From IMG/VR virus record IMGVR_UViG_3300028887_000082: a DNA stretch of 57,047 nt; one strand, 5' to 3'. Shown in pieces: positions 8,625 through 55,390 of the stretch. A program made the position numbers and the translations under genes. The stretch is from a virus (Duplodnaviria > Heunggongvirae > Uroviricota > Caudoviricetes). Positions within the stretch are counted from its first letter, which is position 1. Every line of letters begins with the position of its first letter. Below the pieces are notes generated by a model that worked only from the letters and a program-made list of their open reading frames with translations, was not told the origin of the DNA and made no database searches.

Positions 8625-8659
8625 GTTATATTTAATTGTGTAATTTTAATCTTAAATAT

Positions 8660-9319
8660 ATGACAGAATTTGAAAAGTTTTTAAGAGGCAATAATGTGTC
8701 TTCTCTGACATTAGGTAAGTATTCATCAAAAATCAATGCCGGTTACATCAACCCCACAATTCTTGAAGAGAGGAAGATGAATGTGACACAGATGGATGTG
8801 TTCTCAAGACTTATGCAGGATAGAATCATCTTCCTTGGTACCGAGATTGATGCAGATGTGGCCAATATCATAAATGCCCAGCTTCTGTGGTTGGACAGTA
8901 TGGGTGAAGAGGAAATAACAATGATGATCAATTCTCCAGGTGGTGTGTGTTATGATGGCCTGGCCATTATTGACACAATGAACTACATATCATCACCTAT
9001 CACAACACAATGTGTAGGTATGGCAGCATCAATGGCTGCTGTCATTCTGTCTGCCGGTGAGAAGGGTCACCGTTTCGCACTTCCTCATTCAAGGGTTATG
9101 ATTCATCAGCCTATTGGTGGTGCTCATGGTCAGGCAAGTGATATCCTCATTGAGGCAGAACAGATCAAGATATTGAAGGATGAACTGTGTGGTATTATTG
9201 CAGAGAATTCAGGTAAACCACTTAAGCAGGTTCTGAAGGATGCAGACAGGGATTACTGGATGATTGCCTCTGAAGCAAAGGAATATGGTTTGATTGATAA
9301 TATAATCACAAAGAAATAA
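8660..9319 (+). CDS. clpP: ATP-dependent Clp protease proteolytic subunit
   Basis: DRIIFLG, INSPGG, GMAASMAA (catalytic Ser), RVMIHQP (His); start at ATG 8660. Confidence 0.95.
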   Translation: MTEFEKFLRGNNVSSLTLGKYSSKINAGYINPTILEERKMNVTQMDVFSRLMQDRIIFLGTEIDADVANIINAQLLWLDSMGEEEITMMINSPGGVCYDGLAIIDTMNYISSPITTQCVGMAASMAAVILSAGEKGHRFALPHSRVMIHQPIGGAHGQASDILIEAEQIKILKDELCGIIAENSGKPLKQVLKDADRDYWMIASEAKEYGLIDNIITKK

Positions 9320-21316: not shown

Positions 21317-22741
21317 ATGAAGAAAGAAGAATTCCTTAAAATAACCGGATATATTGGTGGTATCATCAAGGGTACTTCCTTTGAGAATCATGTCTTTGCT
21401 GTAGGCGGGTCTGTAAGAGACCTGTGTATGGGTAATGACATCAAGGATATTGACCTTGTAATAGATCTTCCTCATGGTGGTGTGGATTTTGCCAACTGGT
21501 GTAAGAACCAGGGTTACACAAACACTGTTGTGATTTATGAGACCTATGGAACAGCTATGTTCAAATTTAAGGAATTCCCTGGTGAGGAAATTGAGTGTGT
21601 GATGACCAGAGGTGAGAAGTATCTTGACAAGGAATCCAGAAACCCTGTGACATCATTTGCCGACATCAATGAGGATGCAATCAGAAGAGACCTCACCATC
21701 AATGCCCTTTATTATAATGTAAGTACAGGTGAAATCCTGGATCTGGTTGGTGGTATGAAGGATATTGAGGACCATATCATCAGGACCACCAATACTGACC
21801 CTGATGTTGTATTTGATGATGACCCCTTGAGAATCCTGCGAGTAATCCGTTTCGCAACAAGATATGGTTGGGAGATTGAGGAGAAGACCTTCAAGTCTAT
21901 GAAGAAATATGTCAGAAGACTTGACATCATCACCAAGGAGAGGATCCAGGCTGAACTCAACAAGATTCTTCTTTGTAGGAATGCAGTAATGGGTATAGGT
22001 TATATCCATGACATAGGTGCTATGAAATATGTCATCCCGGAGTTTGAGAAATGTTATGGTCTTGAGCAGAATGCTTTTCATTTCGGTGATGTGGCAGAAC
22101 ACACCCTTGCTGTCCTTCAACACCATTGTGAAACCTTTGAACCCAATCTGACAGAGAGACTGGCATGTCTTCTCCATGACATTGGTAAGGTCATCACAAT
22201 GACAGTAAAGGATGGTAAAGTACATTTCTACAACCATGAATATGCAGGTGTGGGTATGGCTGTAAATATCCTCAAAGATTTGAAGTATGACAATGACACC
22301 ATTGATGAGGTATGTTTCCTTATCAAGAACCATATGAGAACCAAGCAGATGGGTGATGGTGCCAGACTTATGAAGGATAAGTCTCTGAACAAACTCCTTT
22401 ATGAGTGCAAGACCTATGAGAGATTTGAGTCTCTTATGAGGATAATTGAGTGTGACAACCTGGCACACAAGAAGGAGTGCTGCATATATCACCAATACAA
22501 GGAACTGACAGAGAAGGTAAAGGGTTCAGACACTTATATGAAGATGTTTGGATACAGACTTCCTGTAACCGGTAATGACATTATGGAAACCTTGGGTATT
22601 GCACCTGGTCCCATTATTGCAGAGATAAACAACAGACTTCTCAAGCAGGCATTCAACAATCCTGGTATCACGAAGGAGAGTTGTCTTGCTATGCTTCCAA
22701 GACTGAATAAAGAGGCAGAACAGGTAATCAAGGAGAAATGA
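21317..22741 (+). CDS. cca: tRNA nucleotidyltransferase (CCA-adding/poly(A) polymerase family) with HD domain
   Basis: VGGSVRD..DIDL, RRDLTINAL, DDPLRILRVIRF, LLHDIGK. Confidence 0.9.
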   Translation: MKKEEFLKITGYIGGIIKGTSFENHVFAVGGSVRDLCMGNDIKDIDLVIDLPHGGVDFANWCKNQGYTNTVVIYETYGTAMFKFKEFPGEEIECVMTRGEKYLDKESRNPVTSFADINEDAIRRDLTINALYYNVSTGEILDLVGGMKDIEDHIIRTTNTDPDVVFDDDPLRILRVIRFATRYGWEIEEKTFKSMKKYVRRLDIITKERIQAELNKILLCRNAVMGIGYIHDIGAMKYVIPEFEKCYGLEQNAFHFGDVAEHTLAVLQHHCETFEPNLTERLACLLHDIGKVITMTVKDGKVHFYNHEYAGVGMAVNILKDLKYDNDTIDEVCFLIKNHMRTKQMGDGARLMKDKSLNKLLYECKTYERFESLMRIIECDNLAHKKECCIYHQYKELTEKVKGSDTYMKMFGYRLPVTGNDIMETLGIAPGPIIAEINNRLLKQAFNNPGITKESCLAMLPRLNKEAEQVIKEK

Positions 22742-43446: not shown

Positions 43447-43519
43447 GGCTCCGTAGCTCAGTTGGTAGAGCACGGCACTTTTAATGCCGGGGTCACGGGT
43501 TCGAGCCCCGTCGGAGTCA
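43447..43519 (+). tRNA. trnK: tRNA-Lys(TTT)
   Basis: Full cloverleaf; CGGCA-CT TTT AA-TGCCG; CCA not encoded. Confidence 0.92.
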
Positions 43520-43532
43520 CAAAAAAGTTCTG

Positions 43533-43671
43533 GGTGGGACCGGATAACCTTGCAAGGGTTATTGATGATTATACTATATGTACTGATGGGTTAGTCCAGA
43601 CTTAAAATCCACAAAGGCAATTGTACATAGTCCTGAAGTGGTTGAGGAGAGGTGCTTGCAATACTCTCACC
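43533..43671 (+). ncRNA. candidate structured RNA with two TTGCAA-loop hairpins
   Basis: GGTGGGA/TCTCACC closure; TATGTAC/GTACATA; TTGCAA at 43550 and 43656. Confidence 0.4.
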
Positions 43672-43677
43672 AAAAGG

Positions 43678-43753
43678 AATATCATAGCTCAGTTGGTTAG
43701 AGCACCCACAGACTGTAATTGGGAGGTCAGAGGTTCGAGTCCCCTTGATGTTA
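43678..43753 (+). tRNA. atypical tRNA, Thr(TGT)-like with enlarged anticodon loop
   Basis: Normal acceptor, D and T arms; anticodon arm CCCA-CAGACTGTAAT-TGGG. Confidence 0.6.
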
Positions 43754-43759
43754 CAAATT

Positions 43760-43770
43760 AGTTCTTTGAA
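43760..43770 (+). promoter_or_regulatory. boxA-like antitermination element
   Basis: AGTTCTTTGAA; further copies at 46507, 47665, 49550, 52011. Confidence 0.6.
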
Positions 43771-43771
43771 A

Positions 43772-44106
43772 TATTTGTCTCAATGATGGTTATTTCTGCT
43801 TGTGTTTAGAGTTCCCGTCAGCAAACCTCAAAAGGATTAAATGTGGATTTCCACTATGTCCCGGTAATAACGCTGATAGCAGAATTAACAATCCCTATCT
43901 GGTGAAGACTGAAGATAAGGTGCTAAGCCCTGTAAAGATGAAAAATCACTATCTATGTCAATCCAGGACACTGTTTGTTTAAGATAGTGTATTGAAATAT
44001 AGAGGGTAGTCCAAACAGGTTAGGATGCGAAGTTTAAGTAACATTACTATGGACGTAGAACACTTCTCTATTCTTGCAAGATTTCAATGAGGGATTGAGA
44101 CAAATA
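43772..44106 (+). ncRNA. candidate ~335-nt structured ncRNA
   Basis: Perfect 13-bp end-to-end helix TATTTGTCTCAAT/ATTGAGACAAATA with nested stems. Confidence 0.6.
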
Positions 44107-44110
44107 ACAT

Positions 44111-44184
44111 TGGGATGTAGCTATAATGGTTAGAGCAACTGGCCGTTAACCAGAAGGTTGCAGGTTCGAGTCCTGTCATCCCAG
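44111..44184 (+). tRNA. trnN: tRNA-Asn(GTT), C33 variant
   Basis: CTGG-CC GTT AA-CCAG; G73. Confidence 0.88.
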
Positions 44185-44192
44185 CAAAAGAT

Positions 44193-44277
44193 ACCCCAAT
44201 GGTGGAATGGTAGGCACGTCAGATTTAAGATCTGATGACCCGTAAGGGTCGTGTGGGTTCGAGTCCCACTTGGGGTA
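44193..44277 (+). tRNA. trnL: tRNA-Leu(TAA)
   Basis: TCAGA-TT TAA GA-TCTGA, long variable arm. Confidence 0.9.
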
Positions 44278-44292
44278 CACACCACGAACACA

Positions 44293-44389
44293 ATGATGCA
44301 GCGTGGGTTCGGCATACTAGCTGCCGGGGTGTCTTTGACATCATAGAATTGGTGCGTCATCGGCCAGGTGACCCGAGTGGAAGACTGGC
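44293..44389 (+). ncRNA. candidate ~100-nt structured ncRNA, possible pseudoknot
   Basis: ATGATGCA/TGCGTCAT, CGGCA/TGCCG, GCCAG/CTGGC; GGGT/ACCC cross-pairing. Confidence 0.5.
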
Positions 44390-44394
44390 AAATA

Positions 44395-44468
44395 GGGCCT
44401 TTAGCTCAGTTGGTCAGAGCAACTGACTCATAATCAGGAGGTCCCAGGTTCAAGCCCTGGAAGGCCCA
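44395..44468 (+). tRNA. trnI: tRNA(CAT), probably Ile2 (lysidine type)
   Basis: CTGA-CT CAT AA-TCAG; body resembles bacterial Ile2 (GGGCCTTTAGCTCAG...GGTTCAAG). Confidence 0.8.
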
Positions 44469-44559
44469 CAAATATTAAAGAAAGAATTTATGACACAGAT
44501 GCTTAAACAGAAACAGGTATAGTCTGACCTCATTCAGTTATGAGGTCTCAAATGATTAT

Positions 44560-44631
44560 GGCCTTGTAGCTGAGTGGTAAAGCACCTGTCCTTTAAACAG
44601 GGGATCGTGGGTTCAATCCCCACCTGGGCCA
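44560..44631 (+). tRNA. trnK: tRNA-Lys(TTT), C33 variant
   Basis: CCTGT-CC TTT AA-ACAGG. Confidence 0.85.
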
Positions 44632-44641
44632 CAAAACATAT

Positions 44642-44713
44642 GCCTCCATAGTTCAACGGATAGAACGGAAGTTTCCTAAACTTTTGATATGGGTTCGATT
44701 CCCGTTGGAGGTA
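44642..44713 (+). tRNA. trnR: tRNA-Arg(CCT)
   Basis: GAAGT-TT CCT AA-ACTTT. Confidence 0.9.
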
Positions 44714-44719
44714 CAAAGA

Positions 44720-44903
44720 TAAATAGCACCCATACAAAGATCTATATGGGTAAAGACAACTGGACACGCCAAAGACTACGTGCCTTCTGGGATCGACACT
44801 CCGGAGTTATGTCACCCACCTGAGCGGCGGAACTGGTCTGGGTAACCAGGGTTTAATCTGAAGGGAAACCCCAGAGGAAGAGATGTCCGGATTGTGCTAT
44901 TTA
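44720..44903 (+). ncRNA. candidate ~185-nt structured ncRNA
   Basis: 10-bp closure TAAATAGCAC/GTGCTATTTA; TGGACA/TGTCCG; CTTCTGGG/CCCAGAGG. Confidence 0.55.
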
Positions 44904-44910
44904 ATAAAAC

Positions 44911-45083
44911 GTTTAGGAATAGAGGTAGTTTTCCAGCGGGAATTAAGGATCACTGCTCGACATTAAGTTGTGAGTAAGATTGCCACCGGGTAACCAAACC
45001 TGGGTCGCCAGTAAGAAAGGTGGGTATGGTCGTCCCACCGAGTATGAACGCGGGCATAAAGACAGAACACTATAACCCTAAAT
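44911..45083 (+). ncRNA. candidate ~170-nt structured ncRNA
   Basis: GTTTAGG/CCTAAAT closure; GGTGGG/CCCACC; shares GGGTAACCA with preceding element. Confidence 0.45.
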
Positions 45084-45096
45084 ATGAGACCAATAT

Positions 45097-45169
45097 GGTC
45101 TGGTAGCTCAATGGATAGAGCAACAGCCTTCTAAGCTGTGGGTTCTGGGTTCGAGTCCCAGCCGGATCA
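45097..45169 (+). tRNA. trnR: tRNA-Arg(TCT)
   Basis: ACAGC-CT TCT AA-GCTGT. Confidence 0.92.
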
Positions 45170-45333
45170 CTTAAGGGATGATAGTCCACCTCCCTTAACA
45201 TAGGATGATATGTTAGAAGAAATTACTGTGGACAACAAAACCAAAGCCAGACTGCAAATGGTGAAGGTTGGCGTTCTGAATATGAACAATTGGATTTTGC
45301 AGTGTTCAGTTGGGATTTGAAGGTTCGTAAAAT

Positions 45334-45402
45334 GCTTGTTGGTGTAGTGGTTAGCATTCCCCCACCCGGGGGCGACGCTCGGTTCGAATCCGGCACAGGA
45401 GA
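45334..45402 (+). pseudogene. degenerate tRNA
   Basis: D arm GGTGTAGTGGTTAGCAT and GGTTCGAATCC T-loop, but CCCCC-ACCC-GGGGG anticodon arm and weak acceptor. Confidence 0.5.
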
Positions 45403-45423
45403 CTAAGTTATAATAATTAAGGA

Positions 45424-45735
45424 ATGGAACAGAAACCAAGAATTAAGTGGAAGAACTTCAAGATCTGGATTAAGGACCAGTTGAAGAGGAAGACCTGGTT
45501 CAGGAATTTCTTCATTACAGGAAATGCCTGGGGTGGATTCAGTATCAACTCACACATCAACCAGCATACAGGTCAACCGAAGATAACCTACAACCATTTT
45601 GAATCCGCAAAGAAAGCGGCAGACAAGATGAGTCAGAAACATGGTACACATTTCAGTGTTTACAAGTGTCTCTATTGTGACGGTTATCACATAGGAAAGA
45701 ACAGGGAGAATAAGACGGATTATGACAAAAAATAA
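45424..45735 (+). CDS. hypothetical protein
   Basis: Basic; YKCLYCDGYHIG zinc-finger-like tail. Confidence 0.75.
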   Translation: MEQKPRIKWKNFKIWIKDQLKRKTWFRNFFITGNAWGGFSINSHINQHTGQPKITYNHFESAKKAADKMSQKHGTHFSVYKCLYCDGYHIGKNRENKTDYDKK

Positions 45736-45740
45736 AAATT

Positions 45741-46202
45741 ATGAGTAAGTTAGAGAACAAGATCCAGGAGGATATGGTTGAGGCAATGAAGAACAAGAAT
45801 GAGTTTGTACGTGATACACTCAGGATTGTCAAGAGTGAGATAGGTGTCTTCAAGACCAGTGAGAAGTTCATCAAGAGAAATACTGAAATCACAGATGATG
45901 ATATTCAGGGTATCCTTGAAGAGATGGTCAAGAGGAACAGAAAGAACATTGACACAGCGAAGGCCGCAAACCGTGATGACATAGTAAAGAAGAATGAGGA
46001 TGAGATTTCAGTCTTTGAGAGTTATCTCCCAAAGAAGATGACTGAATCAGAGATAGAGGAGGTTGTTGTGAAGACCATCCAGGACCTGGGTGCAACATCA
46101 ATGAAGGATATGGGAAAGGTAATGGGTTTCATCACCAAGACATATGCCGGAAAGGTGGATGGTTCAGTTGTTTCAAAAATTGTGAAGTCTAAACTTGGTT
46201 AA
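45741..46202 (+). CDS. GatB/YqeY domain protein
   Basis: IQEDMVEAMKNK...LPKKMTESEIE...MKDMGKVMG...GKVDGSVVS. Confidence 0.88.
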   Translation: MSKLENKIQEDMVEAMKNKNEFVRDTLRIVKSEIGVFKTSEKFIKRNTEITDDDIQGILEEMVKRNRKNIDTAKAANRDDIVKKNEDEISVFESYLPKKMTESEIEEVVVKTIQDLGATSMKDMGKVMGFITKTYAGKVDGSVVSKIVKSKLG

Positions 46203-46213
46203 TATAAAGAATT

Positions 46214-46444
46214 ATGAAAACTTGGATAATAGTATTGACAATTGCTTTCATCTTCTTGAAGCTTGTTGCAAGAGGGTTTGCAAACTACATCAGGAATGAC
46301 AAGGAAGAGAGAGTGAAGTATTACTTTACCAGTGGTGCAACCCCACTTGGTGTGATACACGGATTCATTTCTCTCTTTGGTACACTGGTAGGATTTGCTG
46401 ATATAATCCTGATCATCATAATGGTTGCGAACAGATTGTTATAA
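46214..46444 (+). CDS. small membrane protein
   Basis: Two hydrophobic segments. Confidence 0.65.
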   Translation: MKTWIIVLTIAFIFLKLVARGFANYIRNDKEERVKYYFTSGATPLGVIHGFISLFGTLVGFADIILIIIMVANRLL

Positions 46445-46459
46445 ATCATTACATAAATA

Positions 46460-46492
46460 TTTGGATGTTTCAGATATTTTTGTTATATTTGT
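46460..46492 (+). promoter_or_regulatory. Bacteroidota sigma70-type promoter
   Basis: TTTG (46460) - 21 nt - TATATTTG (46485), followed by boxA-like 46507-46518. Confidence 0.7.
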
Positions 46493-46551
46493 AACCAGAA
46501 AAGAGAAAGTTCTTTGAAATTTTTAAAATTTGTTCAACATAAATATAATAT

Positions 46552-47334
46552 ATGATTGTCGAACAAATGGATAAACCCAAGTATCATTATTTCTATAAAA
46601 TAACAAATAGACTCAATGGACATTATTATTATGGTGTTCATTCAACATATAATCTTGATGATGGATATATGGGGTCTGGAAAAAGATTACATATTGCTTA
46701 TAAGAAATATGGTATAGAATGTTTTGAAAAGGAAATTTTAAAATTTTTCAATACCAGAAAAGAATGTGAGGAATATGAAGAATCAGTTGTTAATGAAATA
46801 TTGATTGGTGATGACAATTGTTATAATTGTGTACCTGGTGGAGGAACTTTAAAAACTCCAGGAAAAGCATGCTTCATTGATGAAAATGGTAATATTATAC
46901 AAGTAACCACAGAAGATGCACATAAGAGAGGATTAAGAGGTAATGCAGTGGGTACAACATTAGTAATTGTTGATGGTGAATATGTTATGGCTGATGTTGA
47001 TAAACTTAATGATTATGATTCATTTAAGTATCCTATGAGTGGAAAAATAACAGTATATGACAAAAATAATAACCATTATGTTGTAAGTTGTGATGATAAA
47101 AGATATATTTCTGGAGAATTAAGACCATTCTGGTCAGGTAAAAAACTTTCAGAGGAAACAAAAACAAAAATTAAAACATCACTATCACTAATACATCATC
47201 AACAAGGTGAAAAAAATTCTCAATATGGAACTTGTTGGATTACTAAAAATAATGAAAACAAGAAAATTAAAAAAGAGAATTTAGAAACATATCTTAATGA
47301 TGGTTGGGTTAAAGGAAGATTTATAAAACACTAA
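46552..47334 (+). mobile_element. free-standing GIY-YIG (Seg-like) homing endonuclease
   Basis: YFYKITN...YYYGVH...GYMGSG; NUMOD3-like KKLSEETKTKI; AT-richer than neighbours. Confidence 0.8.
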
Positions 47335-47352
47335 ATGTGTTAATGATATATA

Positions 47353-47662
47353 GGTCTTGTTGATACTTTCAGGAAAAACTGTAGGACACGGGTTCGAGTC
47401 CCGCTACCTCCACAAATTTATATTTTTTATATGGGGGTATATTGGTTTTGACTGCTTTTAAGTATGGGAAGAGGAGAGGTCTATCGCCAATAACTGGCAA
47501 AAACAACAATTTCTCTGTAAACTTTGGCCCTGTTGCACAAACAGCTGCTCCAAAGGCTATGATGGCTGCCGCTTAATCGTGGTTTCCCTGATTAGTAAGT
47601 ACACTGGCCAGGCTGGTGTCACAGAAGGTTCTATCCATCTTGTCCAAAAAGATGGATCTTTT
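47353..47662 (+). ncRNA. ssrA: circularly permuted two-piece tmRNA
   Basis: T arm plus 3' acceptor TACCTCC-A (47405-47412) precedes 5' acceptor GGGGGTA (47433); G3:U70; ATAACT|GGC resume; tag 47496-47576 GKNNNFSVNFGPVAQTAAPKAMMAAA*. Confidence 0.88.
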
Positions 47663-47683
47663 GAAAGTTCTTTAAAATATTAT

Positions 47684-47787
47684 ATGGGTGGATTGTATGC
47701 AGTTCTTGATAAGTCTGTATCAGTACTTGCAGATACTGTCTTGAATTAAAGTAAAGAATAGGATCCTGATTACAATAAGTTCCCACC
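47684..47787 (+). ncRNA. candidate ~105-nt structured RNA
   Basis: GGGTGG/CCACCC closure; TCTGTA/TGCAGA hairpin. Confidence 0.35.
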
Positions 47788-47824
47788 CGCCCTTACAGTT
47801 ATGGTTAATCTGTGAAAACCAAAT

Positions 47825-48017
47825 GGGTCAATAGCTCAATGGTAGAGCAGCGGACTGTATAAGGAGTGGTTTACCGGAACAAACCAACCTGGTATGGTCG
47901 AGTGGTCAAAGACGTAGGTTTAGAAAACCGGAGTAAGTTAAAAACTTGCAGACGTTGGTTCAAATCCAACTATCAGGTCTAATCCGCAGGTTGTAGGTTC
48001 GAGCCCTACTTGGCCCG
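47825..48017 (+). tRNA. trnN: interrupted tRNA-Asn(GTT): exons 47825-47858 and 47980-48017
   Basis: Joined exons give a 72-nt cloverleaf with GCGGA-CT GT|T AA-TCCGC, short variable loop and G73. Confidence 0.8.
47888..47978 (+). tRNA. nested type-II tRNA-Ser(AGA)-like gene inside the tRNA-Asn anticodon
   Basis: CCTGGTA/TATCAGG acceptor, TGGTCGAGTGGTCAAAGAC D arm, TT AGA AA loop, long variable hairpin, GTTGG-TTCAAAT-CCAAC. Confidence 0.7.
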
Positions 48018-48021
48018 CAAA

Positions 48022-48109
48022 GTACATAGGAAGTCCTGGTCGTGGTGCACGCTTATGTTAGGTTCGGGTTTGATCAACCCACAGAGGTTCGAGTCCTCTC
48101 TATGTACCA
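48022..48109 (+). ncRNA. tRNA-like RNA with non-canonical D/anticodon region
   Basis: 8-bp acceptor GTACATAG/CTATGTAC, AGAGG-TTCGAGT-CCTCT, GGGTT/AACCC arm. Confidence 0.6.
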
Positions 48110-48126
48110 AATAATAAATATAATAT

Positions 48127-48217
48127 GGAGGAGTGGCAGAGTGGTTTATTGCAGAGGTCTTGAAAACCTCCGGGCGTGTTGAGCGCCCCGTCGGTTCGAA
48201 TCCGGCCTCCTCCGCCA
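48127..48217 (+). tRNA. trnS: tRNA-Ser(TGA)
   Basis: GAGGT-CT TGA AA-ACCTC, long variable arm, G73, CCA encoded. Confidence 0.93.
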
Positions 48218-48398
48218 GTATAACAAATTCCAAAAGTTTGTTATATTTATTAAGGTTTTGTTATGTGTTTGTTTTAAGTTAAAGGTTCTAACCGCAACAA
48301 TTACAAAAAAGATGCTGTTCACATTTTCCAAATGAACCTTGTTTTGTTTCAAACACACAACTTCAAACCAAATAAACATTTAAATTAATTAAAAAAGT

Positions 48399-49040
48399 AT
48401 GAAGAAATTTTTGGCGTTTCTTATGAGCCTTGTGCTCATTTTCGGTTTGAGTTCATGTAACTCTTGCACAAGAAACCAGACTACTCCTACTGAAGAGACC
48501 ACACCGGCAGTTGCTGAGTTGGTTGTTGAGAATGTAATCTCTACTGACCGTCAGGCAATGTACCTTGCACATGGTGGTGACTACAGATGGTATGAGACTG
48601 GTGTTCAACTCAAGGACTGGCTTGATGAAGAGAATGATGGTACTATCGATATGGTAGTTAATGTTTTCCAGGTAATTGAGGAGTATGATTCAACAAGTTT
48701 TGATACCTATGTTTACAAGTATCAGCATTTTTCAGATGGTACTGTAAATGAAGATGGTGTTCATGGTTTCTGGGTTGAGGATTATCCTCTTGAACAGGAA
48801 GTAATTAAGGTAACATTCAAGGAAGCTTACCAGAAGATCCAGGAAGTTAATCTCCCAAGACCTCATTCACGTCAGGTTGTATTGAGAAAGCCTATCGGTC
48901 CTAAGGATTGCAATCCACAGTGGATATTTGGTAATCTCCATGAGCAGATTTGGGTTGATGCAGTTACAGGTGAAGTTACTAACAGTAACCCTGCATTTGA
49001 TGGTCTGAATCTCGGTACTCCACTTGGTGAGTGGCCCTAA
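48399..49040 (+). CDS. putative lipoprotein
   Basis: Signal MKKFLAFLMSLVLIFGLSSC. Confidence 0.8.
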   Translation: MKKFLAFLMSLVLIFGLSSCNSCTRNQTTPTEETTPAVAELVVENVISTDRQAMYLAHGGDYRWYETGVQLKDWLDEENDGTIDMVVNVFQVIEEYDSTSFDTYVYKYQHFSDGTVNEDGVHGFWVEDYPLEQEVIKVTFKEAYQKIQEVNLPRPHSRQVVLRKPIGPKDCNPQWIFGNLHEQIWVDAVTGEVTNSNPAFDGLNLGTPLGEWP

Positions 49041-49052
49041 TAGAAACAATAT

Positions 49053-49115
49053 AGGTTGAATGGTACAACCTGAAGTTAAATATCCACAGGGAAAGGGTTA
49101 GCCCTGGAAGTTAAA
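49053..49115 (+). repeat. two tandem hairpin-GAAGTTAAA modules
   Basis: AGGTTG/CAACCT+GAAGTTAAA and CAGGG/CCCTG+GAAGTTAAA. Confidence 0.45.
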
Positions 49116-49127
49116 GTCACCCAATAC

Positions 49128-49252
49128 TATGATGTGACAAGGAATAGGTATACTTGCGCCACGAGATAATATCAGATGGAAGAAGAGGAAGGGTATTCTT
49201 CATAAAAGTTGGACTAATTTAGTCAATGTGGGTTCGAGTCCCACTATCATAG
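49128..49252 (+). ncRNA. tRNA-shell RNA with expanded anticodon region (125 nt)
   Basis: TATGATG/TATCATA-G acceptor, CAAG/CTTG D stem, variable hairpin, GTGGG-TTCGAGT-CCCAC. Confidence 0.6.
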
Positions 49253-49259
49253 CAAATAT

Positions 49260-49333
49260 CGTGGGGTGCTAGCAGTGGTCAGCTAACTGGGCTCATAACC
49301 CAGAGGTCAGGGGTTCGAATCCCTTCCCCGCTA
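49260..49333 (+). tRNA. trnfM: initiator tRNA-fMet(CAT)
   Basis: C1:U72 mismatch, CTGGG-CT CAT AA-CCCAG (three G-C pairs). Confidence 0.88.
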
Positions 49334-49341
49334 CTAAACTT

Positions 49342-49479
49342 GCCAGTATAGGACAGTATATTGGACATCTGTAACCTCATGGGAGGTCGCAAGAGAGAAT
49401 GAAGGTAACATCTTCAACGTACCGGGTTAGTTCAAAGTAGAATACTCTTGTTATGTAAGTTCGATTCTTACTATTGGCA
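49342..49479 (+). ncRNA. tRNA-shell RNA with multi-hairpin insert (138 nt)
   Basis: GCCAGTA/TATTGGC-A acceptor, GTAAG-TTCGATT-CTTAC T arm, CAAGAG/CTCTTG inner stem. Confidence 0.6.
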
Positions 49480-49508
49480 CAAAAAAAAATAAAAAAGTTT
49501 CAAAAATA

Positions 49509-49540
49509 TTTGGTAGTTTCAAATTTTTTTGTTATCTTTG
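49509..49540 (+). promoter_or_regulatory. Bacteroidota sigma70-type promoter plus boxA-like element
   Basis: TTTG (49509) - 20 nt - TATCTTTG (49533); AAGTTCTTTGA 49550-49560. Confidence 0.8.
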
Positions 49541-49588
49541 TAGTGTTGAAAGTTCTTTGATAGTTTTAAATAAAACAAGGGTGGGTTT

Positions 49589-50654
49589 CTCATCCTTCCC
49601 AAGAAGCCTTCGGGTTGAGGGAGAAAGATAACCAGTGAATACATAAGCTGGGAAAGTCAGTAAGATATTGCATAGTATCCCTGGCGGAGGGTTCAAATCC
49701 TCCCTGTAAGAAAACCAAGATGGTCAGCATATCCTGGAATGGCAGTACACTGTGAAAGGGGTATGCGGAGGCTCTTACCAAGTCTCCTTGAGTGGTAACA
49801 CTGACAAGAACCATTTTGCTTCCGGACAAAAAGATTACCGGTCTGATTGTCTGAATGACCAAAGTTTATTGATATCCAAGAGACTACACCAAGTCTTCCT
49901 AACAGGTGGTGCTGAGATTCCAGAAATGGTTGGATATTAGAATTAGTAGAATGAGTAACACAGAGGTGTGTGAAAGTAGAAAGGTGATGTATCTAAACCT
50001 CTCAAAAGGAGGCATGATAACAAGGGTAACCTCATCTTTCAATCGGTAAATGCTCAATGATTCAAATTGGATGTTGACCAAAGACAGAATAATTAGATTA
50101 TTAAGCAAGCAAAAGTGTTACCCACACTGTAGGACAATACAGTTATGCTTCTGTAAGATGAAGCCTTATGGATCCCGCAAAGTGAAGTAAGAGTATCGCC
50201 AGTATGGACAATGCAAGTGGAGGCATCCACTCAACTCGGCAGAGGTCTTTGGCTTGAAAGCAGCTATGTAATACAGTGTAGTGACTATGGTAGTCTTGGT
50301 GGAAACACCATAAATCCACCTGTATCCGCTTCACCAATAGCAATGTTGGTGTGTGTAAATCTCAGGCGACTGGGACTTGTCCTGAAAAGGAAGAGAGTAG
50401 AGGCGGCGATTGGGGTCAACACTCAGCCCAAATCAATGAATTATTCAGAGTCGGTAACCAGTCCGGTATGGAAGAGCGAGACTTCCCTGGATAACAAAGT
50501 GATATTATAGAGGTACAAATTCTCCTGAATATATAGAACCACTCAGGAGGTTAATTCGAGGCCAGGGATATTACTGAAACAAATTCCCTTTTGGTTCACA
50601 GGGAATGGGAAGAGTGAGTTTGTAATCTGCGAGGTCGGGTTAGTTTTATCTCTT
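49589..50654 (+). ncRNA. giant (~1.05 kb) structured ncRNA candidate, GOLLD/ROOL-like
   Basis: No credible ORF; ends pair (49589-49601 with 50606-50618, 12 of 13); UUCG and GAAA tetraloop hairpins; internal T-loop; own promoter; in tRNA array. Confidence 0.65.
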
Positions 50655-50659
50655 CAAAT

Positions 50660-50733
50660 GGTGCGTTGGTGAAGTTGGTTATCATGCCACCCTGTCACGG
50701 TGGAGTTCACGGGTTCGAGTCCCGTACGCACCG
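50660..50733 (+). tRNA. trnD: tRNA-Asp(GTC)
   Basis: CCACC-CT GTC AC-GGTGG, G73. Confidence 0.93.
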
Positions 50734-50900
50734 CACATAAATATTATGTAAAGAACCATACCGCAATTTTAAACAAATTTCATTTTGATTGAAGAAACCA
50801 TTGGTTCTTGTTTCGTTTCTTTGTTTAGAAAAACAAAGTGGCAGAGACTGGTGGAAACACCCCTCTTGTGAGTGGTAATCTCACATACAAAAACTTGCCG

Positions 50901-50980
50901 GCTATACCCTGGAGGTAAAGGTGTCACAGGCCTATGCATGGGCTGTTTGCAGTACTGGTTCGAATCCAGTCTGGGTAGCA
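50901..50980 (+). pseudogene. degenerate tRNA-like element
   Basis: ACTGG-TTCGAAT-CCAGT T arm, bulged acceptor, extended central hairpin with ATGCAT; preceded by small hairpin cluster 50839-50899. Confidence 0.45.
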
Positions 50981-51003
50981 AATAAAAATGAAAATTGAAT
51001 TTA

Positions 51004-51011
51004 CATAAATA
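51004..51011 (+). promoter_or_regulatory. CATAAATA late-promoter motif upstream of leader 2
   Basis: Same context as leader 1. Confidence 0.55.
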
Positions 51012-51031
51012 ACTTATAAAGATTAAAAATT

Positions 51032-51148
51032 ATGATGACATTGCATACACATATTATGTTTATTGCGGGCAAGCCAGGTTGTTATCGTTTTTGGGAACAG
51101 AAGCAACTCGGACCTAAAGGTGTGTGGGTATGTCACCAGGATAAATAA
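51032..51148 (+). CDS. attenuator leader peptide 2 (38 aa)
   Basis: MMTLHTHIMFIAGKPGCYRFWEQKQLGPKGVWVCHQDK*; GVWVC codons form the antiterminator strand. Confidence 0.75.
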   Translation: MMTLHTHIMFIAGKPGCYRFWEQKQLGPKGVWVCHQDK

Positions 51149-51248
51149 GGATTAAACCAGGATAGGAAAGAAGGTACAGGAAATCCAACAAATATCAATA
51201 GAGACATCTCACACAAATCCAAAAAAAGATTTATGTGAGATTTTTTTT
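51122..51248 (+). terminator. attenuator 2: antiterminator 51122-51134/51203-51214 versus terminator 51206-51248
   Basis: GTGTGGGTATGTC pairs with GACATCTCACAC; ATCTCACACAAATC/GATTTATGTGAGAT plus T-tract. Confidence 0.78.
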
Positions 51249-51256
51249 ATTAACAC

Positions 51257-51331
51257 TGGGTAGTACGGTAATTGGTTCACCGGCTGCATTTGGGATGCAG
51301 ACATATGCGAGTTCGAGTCTCGTCTACCCAA
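51257..51331 (+). tRNA. trnP: tRNA-Pro(TGG)
   Basis: CTGCA-TT TGG GA-TGCAG. Confidence 0.88.
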
Positions 51332-51356
51332 CAAATATACAAAACAAAATAAGATT

Positions 51357-51602
51357 ATGGAGACACTCAAACAGATTGTGAAGGGAAGTGCAAAGTTGGA
51401 ATGCATGAGGAGTGGTGGTGTCGCAGAATACATCATCACATCAGAGACAGGAAAAAGATATGTATTGGACATAGACCTGTCAGACAAGGTGGACTGTGGA
51501 GAGAGTGCTTCATTTATGCCATACTATGAGAGAGCAATAATCCTGATGCGATGGATTCGCAGAGCAATGGAGAAGGGTGAATTGATAGAGTTAAATTCAT
51601 AA
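51357..51602 (+). CDS. hypothetical protein
   Basis: Clean ORF between RNA genes. Confidence 0.7.
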   Translation: METLKQIVKGSAKLECMRSGGVAEYIITSETGKRYVLDIDLSDKVDCGESASFMPYYERAIILMRWIRRAMEKGELIELNS

Positions 51603-51761
51603 ACACATCCGAGATGATCATAGGATGTGGGTTGGGAAGATGAGGATATGTCCGAAAAATTGCATAAAGTAGGATGTATTTAGGTAGCGAGCCCCTCCCT
51701 GGTAGCCAAACAGGTAGTTTAAAGTGCTTAAGAACAGACCAATCATTGAATTATTAGATAT

Positions 51762-51836
51762 GCCGGGTTCTACTAATTGGAATAGGTACCCTGATTTTCA
51801 ATCAGTGCAATATGGGTTCGAGTCCCATACCCGGTA
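51762..51836 (+). tRNA. trnE: tRNA-Glu(TTC)
   Basis: CTGA-TT TTC AA-TCAG; atypical D arm. Confidence 0.8.
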
Positions 51837-51841
51837 CAAAT

Positions 51842-51924
51842 GCGGATGTGGTGTAATGGTAGCCACACTTGGTTCAGAGCTAAGCGGCCGAAAGGCCATA
51901 TGGGTTCGAGTCCCTTCATCCGCA
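51842..51924 (+). tRNA. trnL: tRNA-Leu(CAG)
   Basis: CTTGG-TT CAG AG-CTAAG, long variable arm. Confidence 0.88.
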
Positions 51925-51929
51925 CACAT

Positions 51930-52003
51930 TGGGGGATCATCTAATAGAGTAAGGATACCACTCTGATACAGTGGAAATCCGGGTTCAAATCCCGGCCTCC
52001 CAA
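51930..52003 (+). tRNA. trnI: tRNA(GAT), nominally Ile
   Basis: CCACT-CT GAT AC-AGTGG; body is Gln/Glu-like. Confidence 0.75.
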
Positions 52004-52037
52004 CAAAAGAAAGTTCTTTGACATATTGTACACATTT

Positions 52038-52113
52038 GGGTCTGTGGCAGAGATGGTCTATGCGCTGGACTGAAAATCCAGAGAAGGAGGTTCGAGTCCT
52101 CCCGGACCCACCA
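52038..52113 (+). tRNA. trnF: tRNA-Phe(GAA)
   Basis: CTGGA-CT GAA AA-TCCAG, CCA encoded. Confidence 0.92.
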
Positions 52114-52124
52114 AGATTTGGGAA

Positions 52125-52316
52125 AAGGTTCTTGCATTGATGAAAGTAAATGACACCAGACACCTGATCAGTGAGGAAGTGTTGTTGAAATCGTCTAAAG
52201 TTGAGATGGGGAAAGTGTCATCAGTACTAGTCAAATGATGGGATGGAACTCAAGGAGACATATACTCTGCCTGGCGTGGGAGTCAGGAGGTTCATCAGCA
52301 AGTAAAGTGGAATCTT
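52125..52316 (+). ncRNA. candidate ~190-nt structured ncRNA
   Basis: AAGGTTC/GAATCTT, CTTGC/GCAAG, TGATGAA/TTCATCA, ATGACAC/GTGTCAT. Confidence 0.5.
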
Positions 52317-52321
52317 GACCT

Positions 52322-52405
52322 GTGGGAGTGGCGTAACTGGTAGCCGCGTCGGTCTAAGAAGCCGATCCCAGAAATGGGGTGAGAGTTCGAGTCTCTCTTT
52401 CCACA
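52322..52405 (+). tRNA. trnL: tRNA-Leu(AAG)
   Basis: TCGGT-CT AAG AA-GCCGA, long variable arm; A34. Confidence 0.85.
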
Positions 52406-52412
52406 CAATATT

Positions 52413-52493
52413 GGTCCCGGCATCATAGTAGATGTCATGGAAGCTGCCTGATTCAGCAGGACTGAACAGTGGGGTTCGATACCCTGGGGACCA
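52413..52493 (+). ncRNA. atypical tRNA-like RNA
   Basis: GGTCCC/GGGACC acceptor, 6-bp GGCATC/GATGTC stem, GGGG-TTCGATA-CCCT; no clean anticodon loop. Confidence 0.45.
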
Positions 52494-52499
52494 TCAAAT

Positions 52500-52622
52500 G
52501 TATATGTGAAGCAGATAGGATGTGCTACTACAAGAATTAGTAATCATTTGGATATTGCATACATATGTTCAGTAGAGATGAAAAGGATGTGGACTATGTG
52601 AGTTCGAATCTCATCATATACA
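52500..52622 (+). ncRNA. tRNA-shell RNA with insert (123 nt)
   Basis: GTATATG/CATATAC-A acceptor, GTGAG-TTCGAAT-CTCAT T arm. Confidence 0.6.
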
Positions 52623-52627
52623 TAAAT

Positions 52628-52702
52628 GCTCCCGTAGCTGAGTTGGTTCAAAGCACCTGTCTCTTAAACAGGGGATCCTGGGTTCGAGTCCCAGTGGGAG
52701 TA
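52628..52702 (+). tRNA. trnK: tRNA-Lys(CTT)
   Basis: CCTGT-CT CTT AA-ACAGG. Confidence 0.92.
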
Positions 52703-52712
52703 CAAAACAACT

Positions 52713-52864
52713 GGGGCACAGAGGAGATAAATCGGCTGGAAGCCAGCATTCTATGAAGTCATGAATTCATAAAGTGTACTCTGTGTGAGGGTTTTTACCA
52801 GAGATTGCATCATGCAATTGATGAATGGGAGTTTCCCTTTTAAGTTCGAATCCACAGTGCTCCA
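52713..52864 (+). ncRNA. tRNA-shell-like RNA with G3:U70 acceptor (152 nt)
   Basis: GGGGCAC/GTGCTCC-A, GTTCGAATCC loop without a paired T stem, several inner hairpins. Confidence 0.45.
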
Positions 52865-52869
52865 CAAAT

Positions 52870-53001
52870 GCCGGCTTATCACAGTATATAGGTGACTGTA
52901 GCCGCCCCGTACAGGCGGGTCTGGCCAACCGAAAGTGTACAGCTCGAGACAATGTATATGAGTAGAAGTCAGATATGGATGGTTCGATTCCTCCGATGGC
53001 A
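52870..53001 (+). ncRNA. tRNA-shell-like RNA with internal CC GTA CA hairpin (132 nt)
   Basis: TCAC/GTGA D-like stem, CCGCC-CCGTACA-GGCGG, GGTTCGATTCC T loop; weak acceptor. Confidence 0.45.
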
Positions 53002-53231
53002 CAAAGTTTGTTATATTTTAATAAAGGGTTCTTTATGACAGTTTGAACCTTAGATGTTAATAACTGTTAGTAGTCCTTTGCATCTTTATCCTACTATATC
53101 TTATGAAGATGTTTTAAGCCCAAAGTACACGGGAACGAAGATGGGATCTGCCTCTTAACAATGCATACTGAATCCTCCAAAACGTAGGTTGGCACAGTTA
53201 GACCTCTGGGGTTATTCTAAAAGGTCATTAT

Positions 53232-53304
53232 GGACCATGTAGTGTAACGGCGAGCATATCACATCTGCACTGTGATGGAGGGGTTCGAATCCCACATGTG
53301 TCCA
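53232..53304 (+). tRNA. atypical tRNA(TGC)
   Basis: TCACA-TC TGC AC-TGTGA (C33); bulged acceptor, no G3:U70. Confidence 0.55.
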
Positions 53305-53307
53305 CAA

Positions 53308-53457
53308 ATGAATATTTGAGGTTCCAGAAGGCTTCCGTAATGTGGCATAGTCGGAGGAGACACTGGAGATGGATAAACATGGAAATTCGGGCTACCGGGT
53401 GAGGCAGTGTTAGACGAGGAGGCTTGCTGGAATAAGCAGTCCGGGTAGAATATTCAT
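53308..53457 (+). ncRNA. candidate ~150-nt structured ncRNA
   Basis: 9-bp closure ATGAATATT/AATATTCAT; CTTCCG/CGGAGG; GACACTG/CAGTGTT. Confidence 0.5.
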
Positions 53458-53465
53458 CACAAAAC

Positions 53466-53565
53466 CACAGAGTGTCCAGAGTGTCGAAGCATTGGTTGGT
53501 ATGATGCTTTAAAAGTTTAAACTCTACTCCGAAAGTGGGCGACATATTCGAGACTATACTCTGTG
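53466..53565 (+). ncRNA. candidate ~100-nt structured ncRNA
   Basis: CACAGAGTGT/ATACTCTGTG closure; GTGTCG/CGACAT; AAGCAT/ATGCTT. Confidence 0.5.
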
Positions 53566-53579
53566 TGACAAAACTTTTC

Positions 53580-55389: not shown

Positions 55390-55390
55390 C

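What the first reader, a model, noticed from the sequence alone, without database searches (positions are those of the whole stretch)
47353..47662. Circularly permuted two-piece tmRNA in a Bacteroidota phage, with a 26-residue tag
Seen: the acceptor piece (P2 3' strand, GGAC, T arm, TACCTCC-A) comes before a 20-nt AT-rich spacer and the coding piece (GGGGGTA...TTTTGAC). The pieces pair (AAGTAT/ATACTT, TTTT/AAAA, TGC/GTA) and G3:U70 is present. The tag is GKNNNFSVNFGPVAQTAAPKAMMAAA. Known: permuted tmRNAs occur in alpha-proteobacteria and some beta-proteobacteria and cyanobacteria; Bacteroides tmRNA is one-piece with a short G-starting tag. Inference: an independent permutation event in a phage; the NNN run would make tagging itself Asn-tRNA dependent.
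Basis: partly seen in the sequence, partly recalled or inferred. Interest (0 to 1): 0.8.

Follow-up and report, generated by a model that had tools for sequence, protein, structure and literature searches.

The report
Two-piece tmRNA of giant rumen phage
A giant phage of rumen Bacteroidales carries a genuine rearranged ("two-piece") gene for tmRNA, the RNA that frees stalled ribosomes. It belongs to a conserved phage-only family with a long 26-residue tag, which is a new branch of a kind of phage gene that is already known.

Summary

It is not an artefact. Twenty-two independent metagenome assemblies (rumen, one human gut) carry the same gene. Their acceptor and T stems show compensatory changes, G3:U70 is invariant, the spacer varies (13-22 or about 107 nt), and the tag frame is under coding constraint.

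Near-complete relatives (345 and 412 kb) also encode their own SmpB. These phages and the window's phage all encode ClpP and a ClpA-like ATPase.

A Bacteroidota host is likely. Every copy has a Bacteroidota-type promoter upstream, the genome holds a DUF3575 gene, and the phage SmpB is closest to Bacteroidales SmpBs.

- Phage-borne two-piece tmRNAs are already published (Melnitz, pelagimyophages).
- The Asn run occurs only in this copy, 1 of 23.
- An independent permutation event is plausible (about 50%) but unproven.

The family matches none of the alpha, beta or cyano models beyond the tRNA-like domain, and I found no pseudoknot in it.

Earlier notes of this scan describe the same kind of gene on other DNA, including a related Bacteroidota-phage family. 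I rate it a new variant of a known kind, of moderate interest.

The parts
46460..46491 (+). Promoter-like site TTTG-N20-TATATTTG (Bacteroidota -33/-7 type). It is the likely start of the transcript that carries the homing-endonuclease ORF and the tmRNA.
   Evidence: the same motif ends 34-44 nt upstream of the acceptor piece in all 22 relatives. In the window it lies upstream of the inserted ORF. It occurs 24 times in the 153-kb genome against about 5 in shuffles. The consensus itself is from the literature as I recall it.
46552..47334 (+). GIY-YIG homing-endonuclease ORF (260 aa), inserted between the conserved promoter/leader and the tmRNA gene. Relatives lack it at this place.
   Evidence: PHROG 314 homing endonuclease, E 1.5e-30. 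Relatives lack the ORF. The leader motif GTTCTTTGA sits at 46509.
47348..47412 (+). Acceptor piece (65 nt plus CCA to be added). P2c 3' strand 47350-47358; P2b 47363-47368; P2a' 47375-47378; P2a 47381-47383; GGAC 47384-47387; T arm 47388-47404; acceptor 3' strand 47405-47411 (U70 = T47409); discriminator A47412.
   Evidence: covariation. The 5' end is inferred from where conservation starts.
47413..47432 (+). Intervening sequence (20 nt, CAAATTTATATTTTTTATAT) that must be removed. It begins CAA instead of CCA.
   Evidence: Not conserved in sequence or length among relatives: 13-22 nt, or about 107 nt in L020 and L048. Fourteen of 28 phage tRNA genes have the same CAA after the discriminator.
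47433..47662 (+). Coding piece (about 230 nt). Acceptor 5' strand GGGGGTA 47433-47439 (G3 = 47435); TGGTTTTGAC 47443-47452; P2 5' strands 47453-47465; internal loop 47466-47475; P2c 5' strand 47476-47484; hairpin GCCA/UGGC 47486-47498, which holds the resume codon.
   Evidence: The GCCA/UGGC hairpin never varies, so it is untested.
47496..47576 (+). Tag reading frame: resume codon GGC at 47496, 26 codons (GKNNNFSVNFGPVAQTAAPKAMMAAA), stop TAA at 47574-47576. A hairpin CUGUU/AACAG lies inside it at 47530-47544.
   Evidence: ARAGORN. In the family, variable sites by codon position are 7/4/18, indels are in frame (-6 and +3 nt), and the stop is kept. The hairpin has 2 pairs that change on both sides.
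47601..47619 (+). Hairpin H5 (ACACUGGC-CAG-GCUGGUGU) downstream of the tag.
   Evidence: Five of its 7 pairs change on both sides in the family.
47633..47662 (+). Terminal hairpin AUCCAUCUU/AAGAUGGAU followed by CUUUU. It looks like a terminator and is the probable 3' end of the coding piece.
   Evidence: Conserved in all members, with one pair alternating U-A/A-U. In L037 a tRNA gene starts directly behind it.
21317..22741 (+). Phage CCA-adding enzyme (tRNA nucleotidyltransferase), needed because the tmRNA and most phage tRNA genes do not encode CCA.
   Evidence: PolyA_pol head domain plus HD domain in Pfam; PHROG 2244, E 3.5e-71. Twenty-four of 28 tRNA genes lack an encoded CCA.
8636..9319 (+). 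Phage ClpP protease subunit. It is a possible degrader of tagged proteins, together with a 655-aa ClpA-like ATPase encoded upstream of the window (G000:C1:10920-12887).
   Evidence: PF00574 233 bits. NCBIfam NF001368 256.7 bits (cut-off 249), against 90 bits (cut-off 120) for the ClpP-related prohead-protease model. ATPase.

Best explanation
This is a functional, circularly permuted ssrA gene of a huge phage (estimated about 240 kb) that infects rumen or gut Bacteroidales.

Inferred steps:
1. The gene is transcribed as one precursor from a host-type promoter. In this phage the precursor also carries an inserted homing-endonuclease ORF.
2. tRNA-processing enzymes cut out the 20-nt spacer. RNase P makes the 5' end of the coding piece at G47433. 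A 3' end-trimming enzyme (RNase Z or an exonuclease) cuts after A47412, and the CCA-adding enzyme, which the phage also encodes, builds the CCA end.
3. The 68-nt acceptor piece and the roughly 230-nt coding piece stay together. They are held by the 7-bp acceptor stem and a long P2 stalk formed in trans (3+4+6+9 bp).
4. G3:U70 lets alanyl-tRNA synthetase charge the acceptor piece.
5. With SmpB, the RNA enters ribosomes stalled on broken mRNAs. SmpB is phage-encoded in near-complete relatives and was probably lost from this record by truncation.
6. Translation resumes at GGC 47496, adds Ala plus 26 residues, and stops at UAA.
7. The conserved tag (ending A-F/A/Y-A) then marks the product for Clp-type proteolysis, possibly by the phage's own ClpP and ClpA-like ATPase.

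Shown here: the gene anatomy, its conservation, the base-pair covariation, the coding constraint on the tag, and the partner genes. Everything else, including processing, charging, tagging and degradation, is inferred.
For: - Two detectors agree: ARAGORN tmRNA* and RF04321 at 56.4 bits against a cut-off of 47.
- The gene belongs to a family of 23 copies from independent assemblies, on contigs up to 412 kb.
- Acceptor stem: 160 of 161 cells are paired, G1:C72, G2:C71 and G3:U70 are invariant, and pairs 4-7 swap G-C/C-G/U-A.
- tRNA-like domain plus P2: 99.2% paired, 7 pairs change on both sides, and 0 of 500 shuffles reach the covariation score.
- Downstream hairpins: 95.6% paired, with 8 covarying pairs.
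- The spacer is variable in sequence and length, as expected for a discarded piece.
- The tag frame varies at codon positions 1/2/3 at 7/4/18 sites, its indels are in frame, and the stop is conserved.
- SmpB is encoded in G001 and G002 (180 bits, and above the NCBIfam equivalog cut-offs). It lies about 92-95 kb downstream of the tmRNA there, which would fall beyond the end of this 153.6-kb record.
- G001 and G002 hold no standard tmRNA, nor does the own record.
- The phage encodes a CCA-adding enzyme, and its tRNA genes share the same CAA 3' context.
- G000, G001 and G002 all encode ClpP and a ClpA-like ATPase.
- A host-type promoter is conserved upstream.
Against: - There is no direct evidence of the two processed RNAs, of charging or of tagged proteins.
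- SmpB is absent from the 153-kb record that holds the window.
- CCA is not encoded here. The first T-stem pair is A·C in this copy.
- No pseudoknot was found, and PK1 is normally important for tmRNA function.
- Minimum-free-energy cofolding of the two pieces is no better than shuffled controls (z -0.93).
- The tag ends AAA or AFA rather than the classical LAA, so its role as a degron is assumed.
- Co-occurrence with the Clp genes may simply reflect clade membership.
Confidence: 0.8

Rival explanations
1. On origin: the gene was not permuted independently. It descends, by transfer between phages, from one of the known permuted lineages, most likely the betaproteobacterial type, and has since diverged beyond recognition outside the tRNA-like domain.
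For: - beta_tmRNA is the best old model on the tRNA-like domain (42 bits).
- The layout matches the beta type: P2 3' strand, tRNA-like domain, spacer, tRNA-like domain, P2 5' strand, tag, two hairpins.
- Beta-type permuted tmRNAs are common on viral contigs.
- My family model aligns over its full length to two of them, though weakly (37.5 bits).
Against: - Only positions 82-161 of 331 of the beta model match. The alpha and cyano models did not outscore that 42-bit partial beta match on the window, and no old permuted model reached its gathering score on 20 relatives.
- The resume codon is GGC (Gly), as in the native Bacteroides tag GETNYALAA. From memory, alpha, beta and cyano tags start with Ala.
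- The partner SmpB is closest to Bacteroidales SmpBs.
- 99.7% of Bacteroidota tmRNA calls are one-piece (PMC11915505 Table S2).
Confidence: 0.4
2. The RNA is a decoy rather than a working tmRNA. Its tRNA-like part would soak up host SmpB or block host trans-translation, as proposed for the TLD-only RNA of mycobacteriophage DS6A, and the tag would not be translated.
For: - A precedent is cited in PMC4131195 and PMC11915505.
- No pseudoknot was found.
- This copy has an A·C pair in the T stem.
Against: - The tag frame shows a third-position bias of 18 against 7 and 4, in-frame indels and a conserved stop.
- The phages carry their own SmpB.
- G3:U70 and the whole acceptor stem are maintained by compensatory change.
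Confidence: 0.05
3. The permuted order is an assembly or recombination artefact, or a decaying pseudogene made of two tmRNA fragments.
For: - The gene sits in a recombination-prone tRNA island with homing endonucleases.
- RF04321 scores are only just above threshold.
Against: - Twenty-two independent assemblies from many samples have the same order.
- An unbroken unitig spans the junction.
- The helices covary and the tag is under purifying selection.
Confidence: 0.01

Closest known systems
Phage-encoded two-piece tmRNAs of aquatic myophages (OM43 phage Melnitz, pelagimyophages; PMC9004378)
   Same: A circularly permuted ssrA carried by a large lytic-type phage next to tRNA genes, called tmRNA* by ARAGORN, and presumed to support ribosome rescue during infection.
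   Different: Those copies group with the alphaproteobacterial lineage of their hosts' relatives, have short tags, and in Melnitz carry a glutamine riboswitch. This family occurs in rumen and gut Bacteroidales phages, matches no lineage-specific model, has a 26-residue tag, and travels with phage smpB, clpP and a clpA-like gene.
Betaproteobacterial two-piece tmRNA (Rfam RF01850; Sharkady and Williams 2004, not readable here)
   Same: The gene order and overall layout are the same: a trans P2 stalk, a short spacer after (C)CA, then the tag followed by two hairpins. It is the best-scoring lineage model on the tRNA-like domain.
   Different: Only 80 of 331 model positions match (42 bits against a cut-off of 84). 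The PK1-type hairpin region is not recognisable, the resume codon is Gly rather than Ala, and the tag has 26 residues against about 10 (ANDERFALAA).
Generic permuted tmRNA model RF04321 and the 2025 tmRNA database (PMC11915505)
   Same: The window and most relatives pass the gathering score (47-62 bits). The database already counts 48 permuted calls in Bacteroidota genome bins, and some of these may be this family.
   Different: Scores are marginal compared with 115-172 bits for beta-type phage copies, and the long-spacer member L020 fails. The paper does not discuss a Bacteroidota or phage permuted lineage.
One-piece tmRNA of Bacteroides (tag GETNYALAA)
   Same: The tag starts with Gly, followed by an Asn-rich stretch and then an aromatic residue. 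The promoter is of the same host type, and the partner SmpB is of Bacteroidales type.
   Different: The host gene is one-piece and its tag has 9 residues ending LAA. From general knowledge it has four pseudoknots; no host tmRNA could be fetched here for a direct comparison.

Membership tests
tmRNA (ssrA), any gene form | tRNA-like domain: a 7-bp acceptor stem with G3:U70, discriminator A, a T arm with a GGUUCGAnUCC-type loop, and the UGGUUUnGAC and GGAC elements | tested here: met
   Sequence and the RF04321 alignment. G3:U70 is invariant in 23 of 23 copies, and stem pairs 4-7 covary.
tmRNA (ssrA), any gene form | An internal tag reading frame with a resume codon and a stop, under selection as a peptide, with an Ala-rich C-terminus | tested here: met
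   Twenty-six codons, ending AAA here and AFA in most copies. Codon-position variation is 7/4/18 and indels are in frame.
tmRNA (ssrA), any gene form | An encoded or added 3' CCA, and charging with alanine | not testable with these tools
   CCA is encoded in 17 of 23 relatives but not here, where the sequence reads CAA. The phage encodes a CCA-adding enzyme. Charging needs an experiment.
tmRNA (ssrA), any gene form | A dedicated partner protein, SmpB | tested here: inconclusive
   Absent from the 153-kb record, which is 64% complete. Present in both near-complete relatives, at a distance that would fall beyond this record's end.
tmRNA (ssrA), any gene form | Pseudoknots, PK1 above all, between P2 and the tag | tested here: not met
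   An all-against-all search for covarying helices found only nested helices. An intermolecular 9-bp helix ends 11 nt before the resume codon, where PK1 would normally sit. A pseudoknot made of invariant bases cannot be excluded.
Circularly permuted (two-piece) tmRNA gene form | The acceptor half lies upstream of the coding half, joined by a dispensable intervening sequence. The acceptor stem and P2 form between the halves. | tested here: met
   The spacer varies (13-22 or about 107 nt), and the trans helices are supported.
Circularly permuted (two-piece) tmRNA gene form | The mature RNA exists as two separate molecules | not testable with these tools
   Only contigs of RNA libraries were available, and they cannot show RNA ends.
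Alpha, beta or cyano permuted lineages (RF01849, RF01850, RF01851) | A full-length match to the lineage-specific covariance model, above its gathering score | tested here: not met
   On the window the best old-model match is beta_tmRNA at 42 bits (cut-off 84), over positions 82-161 of 331 only; four lower-scoring overlapping clan matches were left out. No member reached any of the three cut-offs.

The most novel reading that the evidence does not exclude
This is a fourth, independent origin of the two-piece tmRNA gene form. It arose inside huge Bacteroidales phages from a Bacteroidota-type one-piece tmRNA. The RNA is the centre of a self-contained phage pathway made of the permuted tmRNA, phage SmpB, and phage ClpP with a ClpA-like unfoldase. 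In this reading the conserved 26-residue tag is a private degron read by the phage's own protease, and an intermolecular helix replaces pseudoknot PK1.
Probability: 0.2. Interest if true: 0.7.

Novelty: new variant of a known kind. Interest (0 to 1): 0.45.

Why it matters
Permuted tmRNA genes are a textbook case of RNA gene rearrangement, thought to have arisen only a few times. A further lineage that lives only in phages, has no recognisable pseudoknots and makes a trans helix next to the resume codon would show how little of tmRNA is really required.

It also shows that giant gut and rumen phages carry a near-complete ribosome-rescue and tagged-protein degradation kit: tmRNA, SmpB, ClpP, a Clp ATPase, a CCA-adding enzyme, an RNA ligase and at least 30 tRNA genes in this window alone. 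That fits the idea that they keep translation running after they, or host defences, damage host mRNAs and tRNAs.

On the practical side, the family sits at the edge of detection by current models, so annotation pipelines will miss or mislabel some of its members.

Tried and rejected
- blastn of the gene against 50,697 deposited phage genomes found no match.
- A DNA pattern scan of 185,579 species-representative genomes found no copy, so there is no sign of a cellular or prophage copy there.
I therefore could not fetch a Bacteroidota tmRNA or build a labelled SmpB tree.
- A second look-up of cluster names gave no taxon names.
- RNA-library contigs (runs X4, X20, X22) cover relatives' coding pieces. 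One 315-nt contig stops 5 nt beyond the last base that aligns to the window (47657, the end of the terminal hairpin stem) and contains part of the long spacer. Contigs cannot show ends or exclude DNA carry-over, so I count this neither as evidence of expression nor as evidence of processing.
- Minimum-free-energy cofolding recovered the acceptor stem, part of P2 and the hairpins, but its energy was no better than shuffled controls (z -0.93).
- I looked for pseudoknots and for pairing between the 5' end of the acceptor piece and the 3' tail of the coding piece. Candidates such as UUGUUG with CAACAA in the tag, or GGAGAGG with UUUCUCU, are not kept across the family.
- I considered a syntenic one-piece ancestor. 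Phage G003 has a standard tmRNA beside a 28%-identical homologue of window ORF 48399-49040. However, its tag starts with Ala, only the universal tRNA-like parts resemble each other, and closer relatives lack any tmRNA. The lead is weak.
- A periplasmic Tsp/Prc-type protease (PF03572) is not encoded by these phages.
- Alternative genetic codes are not needed. Table 11 gives long + strand ORFs.

Full report
**What is there**

The window is bases 24250-81296 of a 153.6-kb IMG/VR virus record that CheckV rates 64% complete. That implies a genome of roughly 240 kb. Standard code 11 gives long ORFs, mostly on the + strand.

The finding lies inside an island of 30 tRNA genes at 43.4-55.7 kb. Rfam's generic permuted model RF04321 matches 47355-47576 at 56.4 bits against a gathering score of 47.

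Read from the sequence:
- The acceptor piece is 47348-47412. It holds the P2 3' strands, GGAC, the T arm ACGGG-TTCGAGT-CCCGC, the acceptor strand TACCTCC and discriminator A47412.
- A 20-nt AT-rich spacer follows at 47413-47432.
- The coding piece starts at G47433 with GGGGGTA, TAT and TGGTTTTGAC, followed by the P2 5' strands.
- The resume codon GGC is at 47496. There are 26 codons and a TAA stop at 47574-47576.
- Two hairpins follow. The last one (47633-47657) is followed by CUUUU.
- G3:U70 is present.
- CCA is not encoded. The gene reads A-CAA.

**It is a real, conserved gene**

Deposited phage genomes hold no match. Pattern scans of IMG/VR and JGI/ENA metagenomes found 22 further complete copies. 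They lie on contigs of up to 344.7 kb (G001) and 411.6 kb (G002). Most come from rumen samples and one from a human gut assembly.

All 23 copies keep the same order of parts, which excludes an assembly artefact. A unitig of the probable source run also spans 47347-47490 without a difference.

The acceptor stem takes six sequence forms:
- GGGGGUA/UACCUCC
- GGGCCUG/CAGGUCC
- GGGCUCG/CGGGUCC
- GGGCUCG/CGAGUCC
- GGGCUUG/CAGGUCC
- GGGCCCG/CGGGUCC

In this stem 160 of 161 cells are paired. G1:C72, G2:C71 and G3:U70 never change.

I realigned the copies with a covariance model built from the family. The tRNA-like domain plus P2 is then 99.2% paired, against 33-55% when partners are slid. Seven pairs change on both sides, and no shuffle of 500 reaches the covariation score.

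This includes a 9-bp helix between the very 5' end of the acceptor piece (47350-47358) and the coding piece (47476-47484). That helix ends 11 nt before the resume codon. It has one compensatory U-A to C-G change and one U·G to U-A change.

The hairpin inside the tag, hairpin H5 and the terminal hairpin are 95.6% paired, with 8 covarying pairs.

The spacer is the least conserved part. It is 13-22 nt in 21 copies and about 107 nt in two, as expected for a segment that is thrown away.

**The tag is translated**

All copies resume at GGC. The consensus tag is G[KN][NT]N[GNAVK]FSVNFGPVAQT[AVST]APKAM[VMF]A[FAY]A.

Among the 16 distinct 26-codon sequences, variable sites fall 7, 4 and 18 times on codon positions 1, 2 and 3. 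The two length variants differ by -6 and +3 nt, so the frame is kept. The other two frames contain stops or give unconserved peptides.

**Partners and host**

The 153-kb record has no SmpB and no standard tmRNA. Both 94%-complete relatives encode a 150-aa SmpB that passes the NCBIfam equivalog cut-offs, and they have no other tmRNA.

In those relatives smpB lies about 92-95 kb downstream of ssrA. In this record that position would be past the end, so the absence here is best explained by truncation.

The phage also encodes:
- a CCA-adding enzyme (21317-22741);
- an RNA ligase, NAD salvage enzymes and YqeY;
- a true ClpP (8636-9319), which passes the NF001368 cut-off and falls well short of the prohead-protease model;
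- a 655-aa two-ring ClpA/ClpC-like ATPase, encoded upstream of the window.

G001 and G002 have the same two Clp genes. Three smaller, more distant phages without this tmRNA have neither.

Twenty-four of 28 phage tRNA genes lack an encoded CCA, and 14 of them read CAA after the discriminator, as the tmRNA does. The acceptor piece is therefore built to be finished by the same 3' pathway as the phage's tRNAs.

A Bacteroidota host is supported by several independent observations:
- Every relative has TTTG-N19-20-TA(T/C)(A/C)TTTG ending 34-44 nt upstream of the gene. This matches the Bacteroidota -33/-7 promoter consensus as I recall it from the literature. The motif is about five times enriched in the genome, mostly on the coding strand.
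- The genome has a DUF3575 gene. Among 14 control genomes that family rang only in Bacteroides.
- The nearest named cellular SmpB is from a Paludibacteraceae MAG; its cluster's representative is 51% identical to the phage SmpB. Another near hit (48%) sits in a chromosomal context that includes DUF4296.
- The nearest protein-atlas clusters are Bacteroidota (a lead only).

In the window the promoter motif is at 46460-46491, and a GIY-YIG homing-endonuclease ORF (46552-47334) lies between it and the tmRNA. Relatives lack that ORF there, so it is an insertion between promoter and ssrA.

**Comparison with what is known**

Phage-borne two-piece tmRNAs are published. PMC9004378 describes Melnitz and pelagimyophages, and counts 53 two-piece forms among 133 unique phage tmRNAs. 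Huge phages were reported to carry tmRNAs and SmpB (PMC7162821).

The 2025 tmRNA database built RF04321. It counts 24,380 standard and 48 permuted calls among Bacteroidota genome bins, without comment (PMC11915505). I found no paper on this family.

Earlier notes of this scan report the same kind of gene on many other genomes, including a related pseudoknot-free family in Bacteroidota phages. These are unchecked notes, but they agree with what I found.

The family is distinct from the three classical lineages:
- On the window the best old-model match is beta_tmRNA, which covers only the tRNA-like domain (42 bits, positions 82-161 of 331).
- No member reaches a lineage cut-off.
- RF04321 scores the family at 47-62 bits, against 115-172 bits for beta-type phage copies.
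- The long-spacer member L020 falls below threshold.

**Origin**

In favour of an independent permutation:
- a Gly resume codon, with a G-x-N-N-x-aromatic start like the native Bacteroides tag GETNYALAA;
- a Bacteroidales-type SmpB;
- hosts whose own tmRNA is one-piece;
- no homology to the alpha, beta or cyano models outside the universal domain.

Against it:
- the general layout equals that of the beta type, which may reflect either common descent or common constraint;
- tags that start GK are, from memory, also found in Bacillota;
- I could not fetch cellular tmRNAs or build a labelled tree.

I put the independent origin at about one half.

**Function**

The most likely mechanism is ordinary trans-translation by a two-piece tmRNA that tRNA enzymes process out of a tRNA-type transcript.

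The likely benefit is to keep ribosomes free, and perhaps to recycle truncated proteins, during an infection in which mRNAs and tRNAs are being cut. This fits the neighbouring RNA ligase, the CCA-adding enzyme and the large tRNA set.

The conserved interior of the long tag and the phage's own Clp genes suggest, but do not show, a phage-specific degradation route.

**Verdict**

This is a new variant of a known kind, of moderate interest.

Noticed in passing
window 46460-47345: A GIY-YIG homing-endonuclease gene (46552-47334) sits between the conserved Bacteroidota-type promoter plus GTTCTTTGA leader (46460-46517) and the tmRNA. All 22 relatives have promoter and tmRNA adjacent, so here the tmRNA must be co-transcribed behind the endonuclease ORF.
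   Followed up: partly
window 43761, 46509, 47667, 49552, 52013, 53860, 56579 (+ strand): The motif GTTCTTTGA/GTTCTTTAA recurs 7 times on the + strand, against 1.9 expected. Several copies lie in leaders just ahead of RNA genes, and the motif is conserved about 20 nt upstream of the tmRNA in relatives. It may be a processing signal or a second promoter element.
   Followed up: partly
window 43447-55659: Twenty-four of 28 phage tRNA genes lack an encoded CCA, and 14 read CAA directly after the discriminator, as the tmRNA acceptor piece does. The phage encodes its own CCA-adding enzyme (21317-22741) and an RNA ligase (16393-17775).
   Followed up: partly
window 8636-9319 and G000:C1:10920-12887 (upstream of the window): The phage encodes a true ClpP (not a prohead protease by the NCBIfam cut-offs) and a 655-aa two-ring ClpA/ClpC-like ATPase that lacks the usual N domain. 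Both are also present in the 345-kb and 412-kb relatives.
   Followed up: partly
L032 9638-9947 (141.5-kb phage contig G003): A smaller rumen phage carries a standard one-piece tmRNA (RF00023 64 bits, tag AKVVDMTPRAQMLAAA, acceptor stem GGGGGTA/TACCTCC as in the window). It lies directly upstream of a 28%-identical homologue of window ORF 48399-49040. That phage has no SmpB.
   Followed up: partly
L020 8886-8992 and L048 (long-spacer copies): Two family members have a spacer of about 107 nt instead of about 20 nt, with a 7-bp hairpin (GGTTGAG...CTCAACC) and no conserved ORF. A 315-nt contig of an rRNA-depleted rumen RNA library contains part of this spacer joined to the coding piece.
   Followed up: no
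L020 9247-9419; L048 5727-5902; L037 545-721; L050 12730-12877: Rfam's tRNA model spans 148-177 nt at these places, so relatives have tRNA genes with long internal insertions next to the tmRNA. These look like the nested or intron-bearing tRNAs already noted for this genome.
   Followed up: no
L054 and L056, 120 nt upstream of the tmRNA: The promoter-like TTTG-N19-20-TATATTTG motif is duplicated in tandem, with copies ending about 38 and about 119 nt upstream, in the human-gut member and one other member.
   Followed up: no
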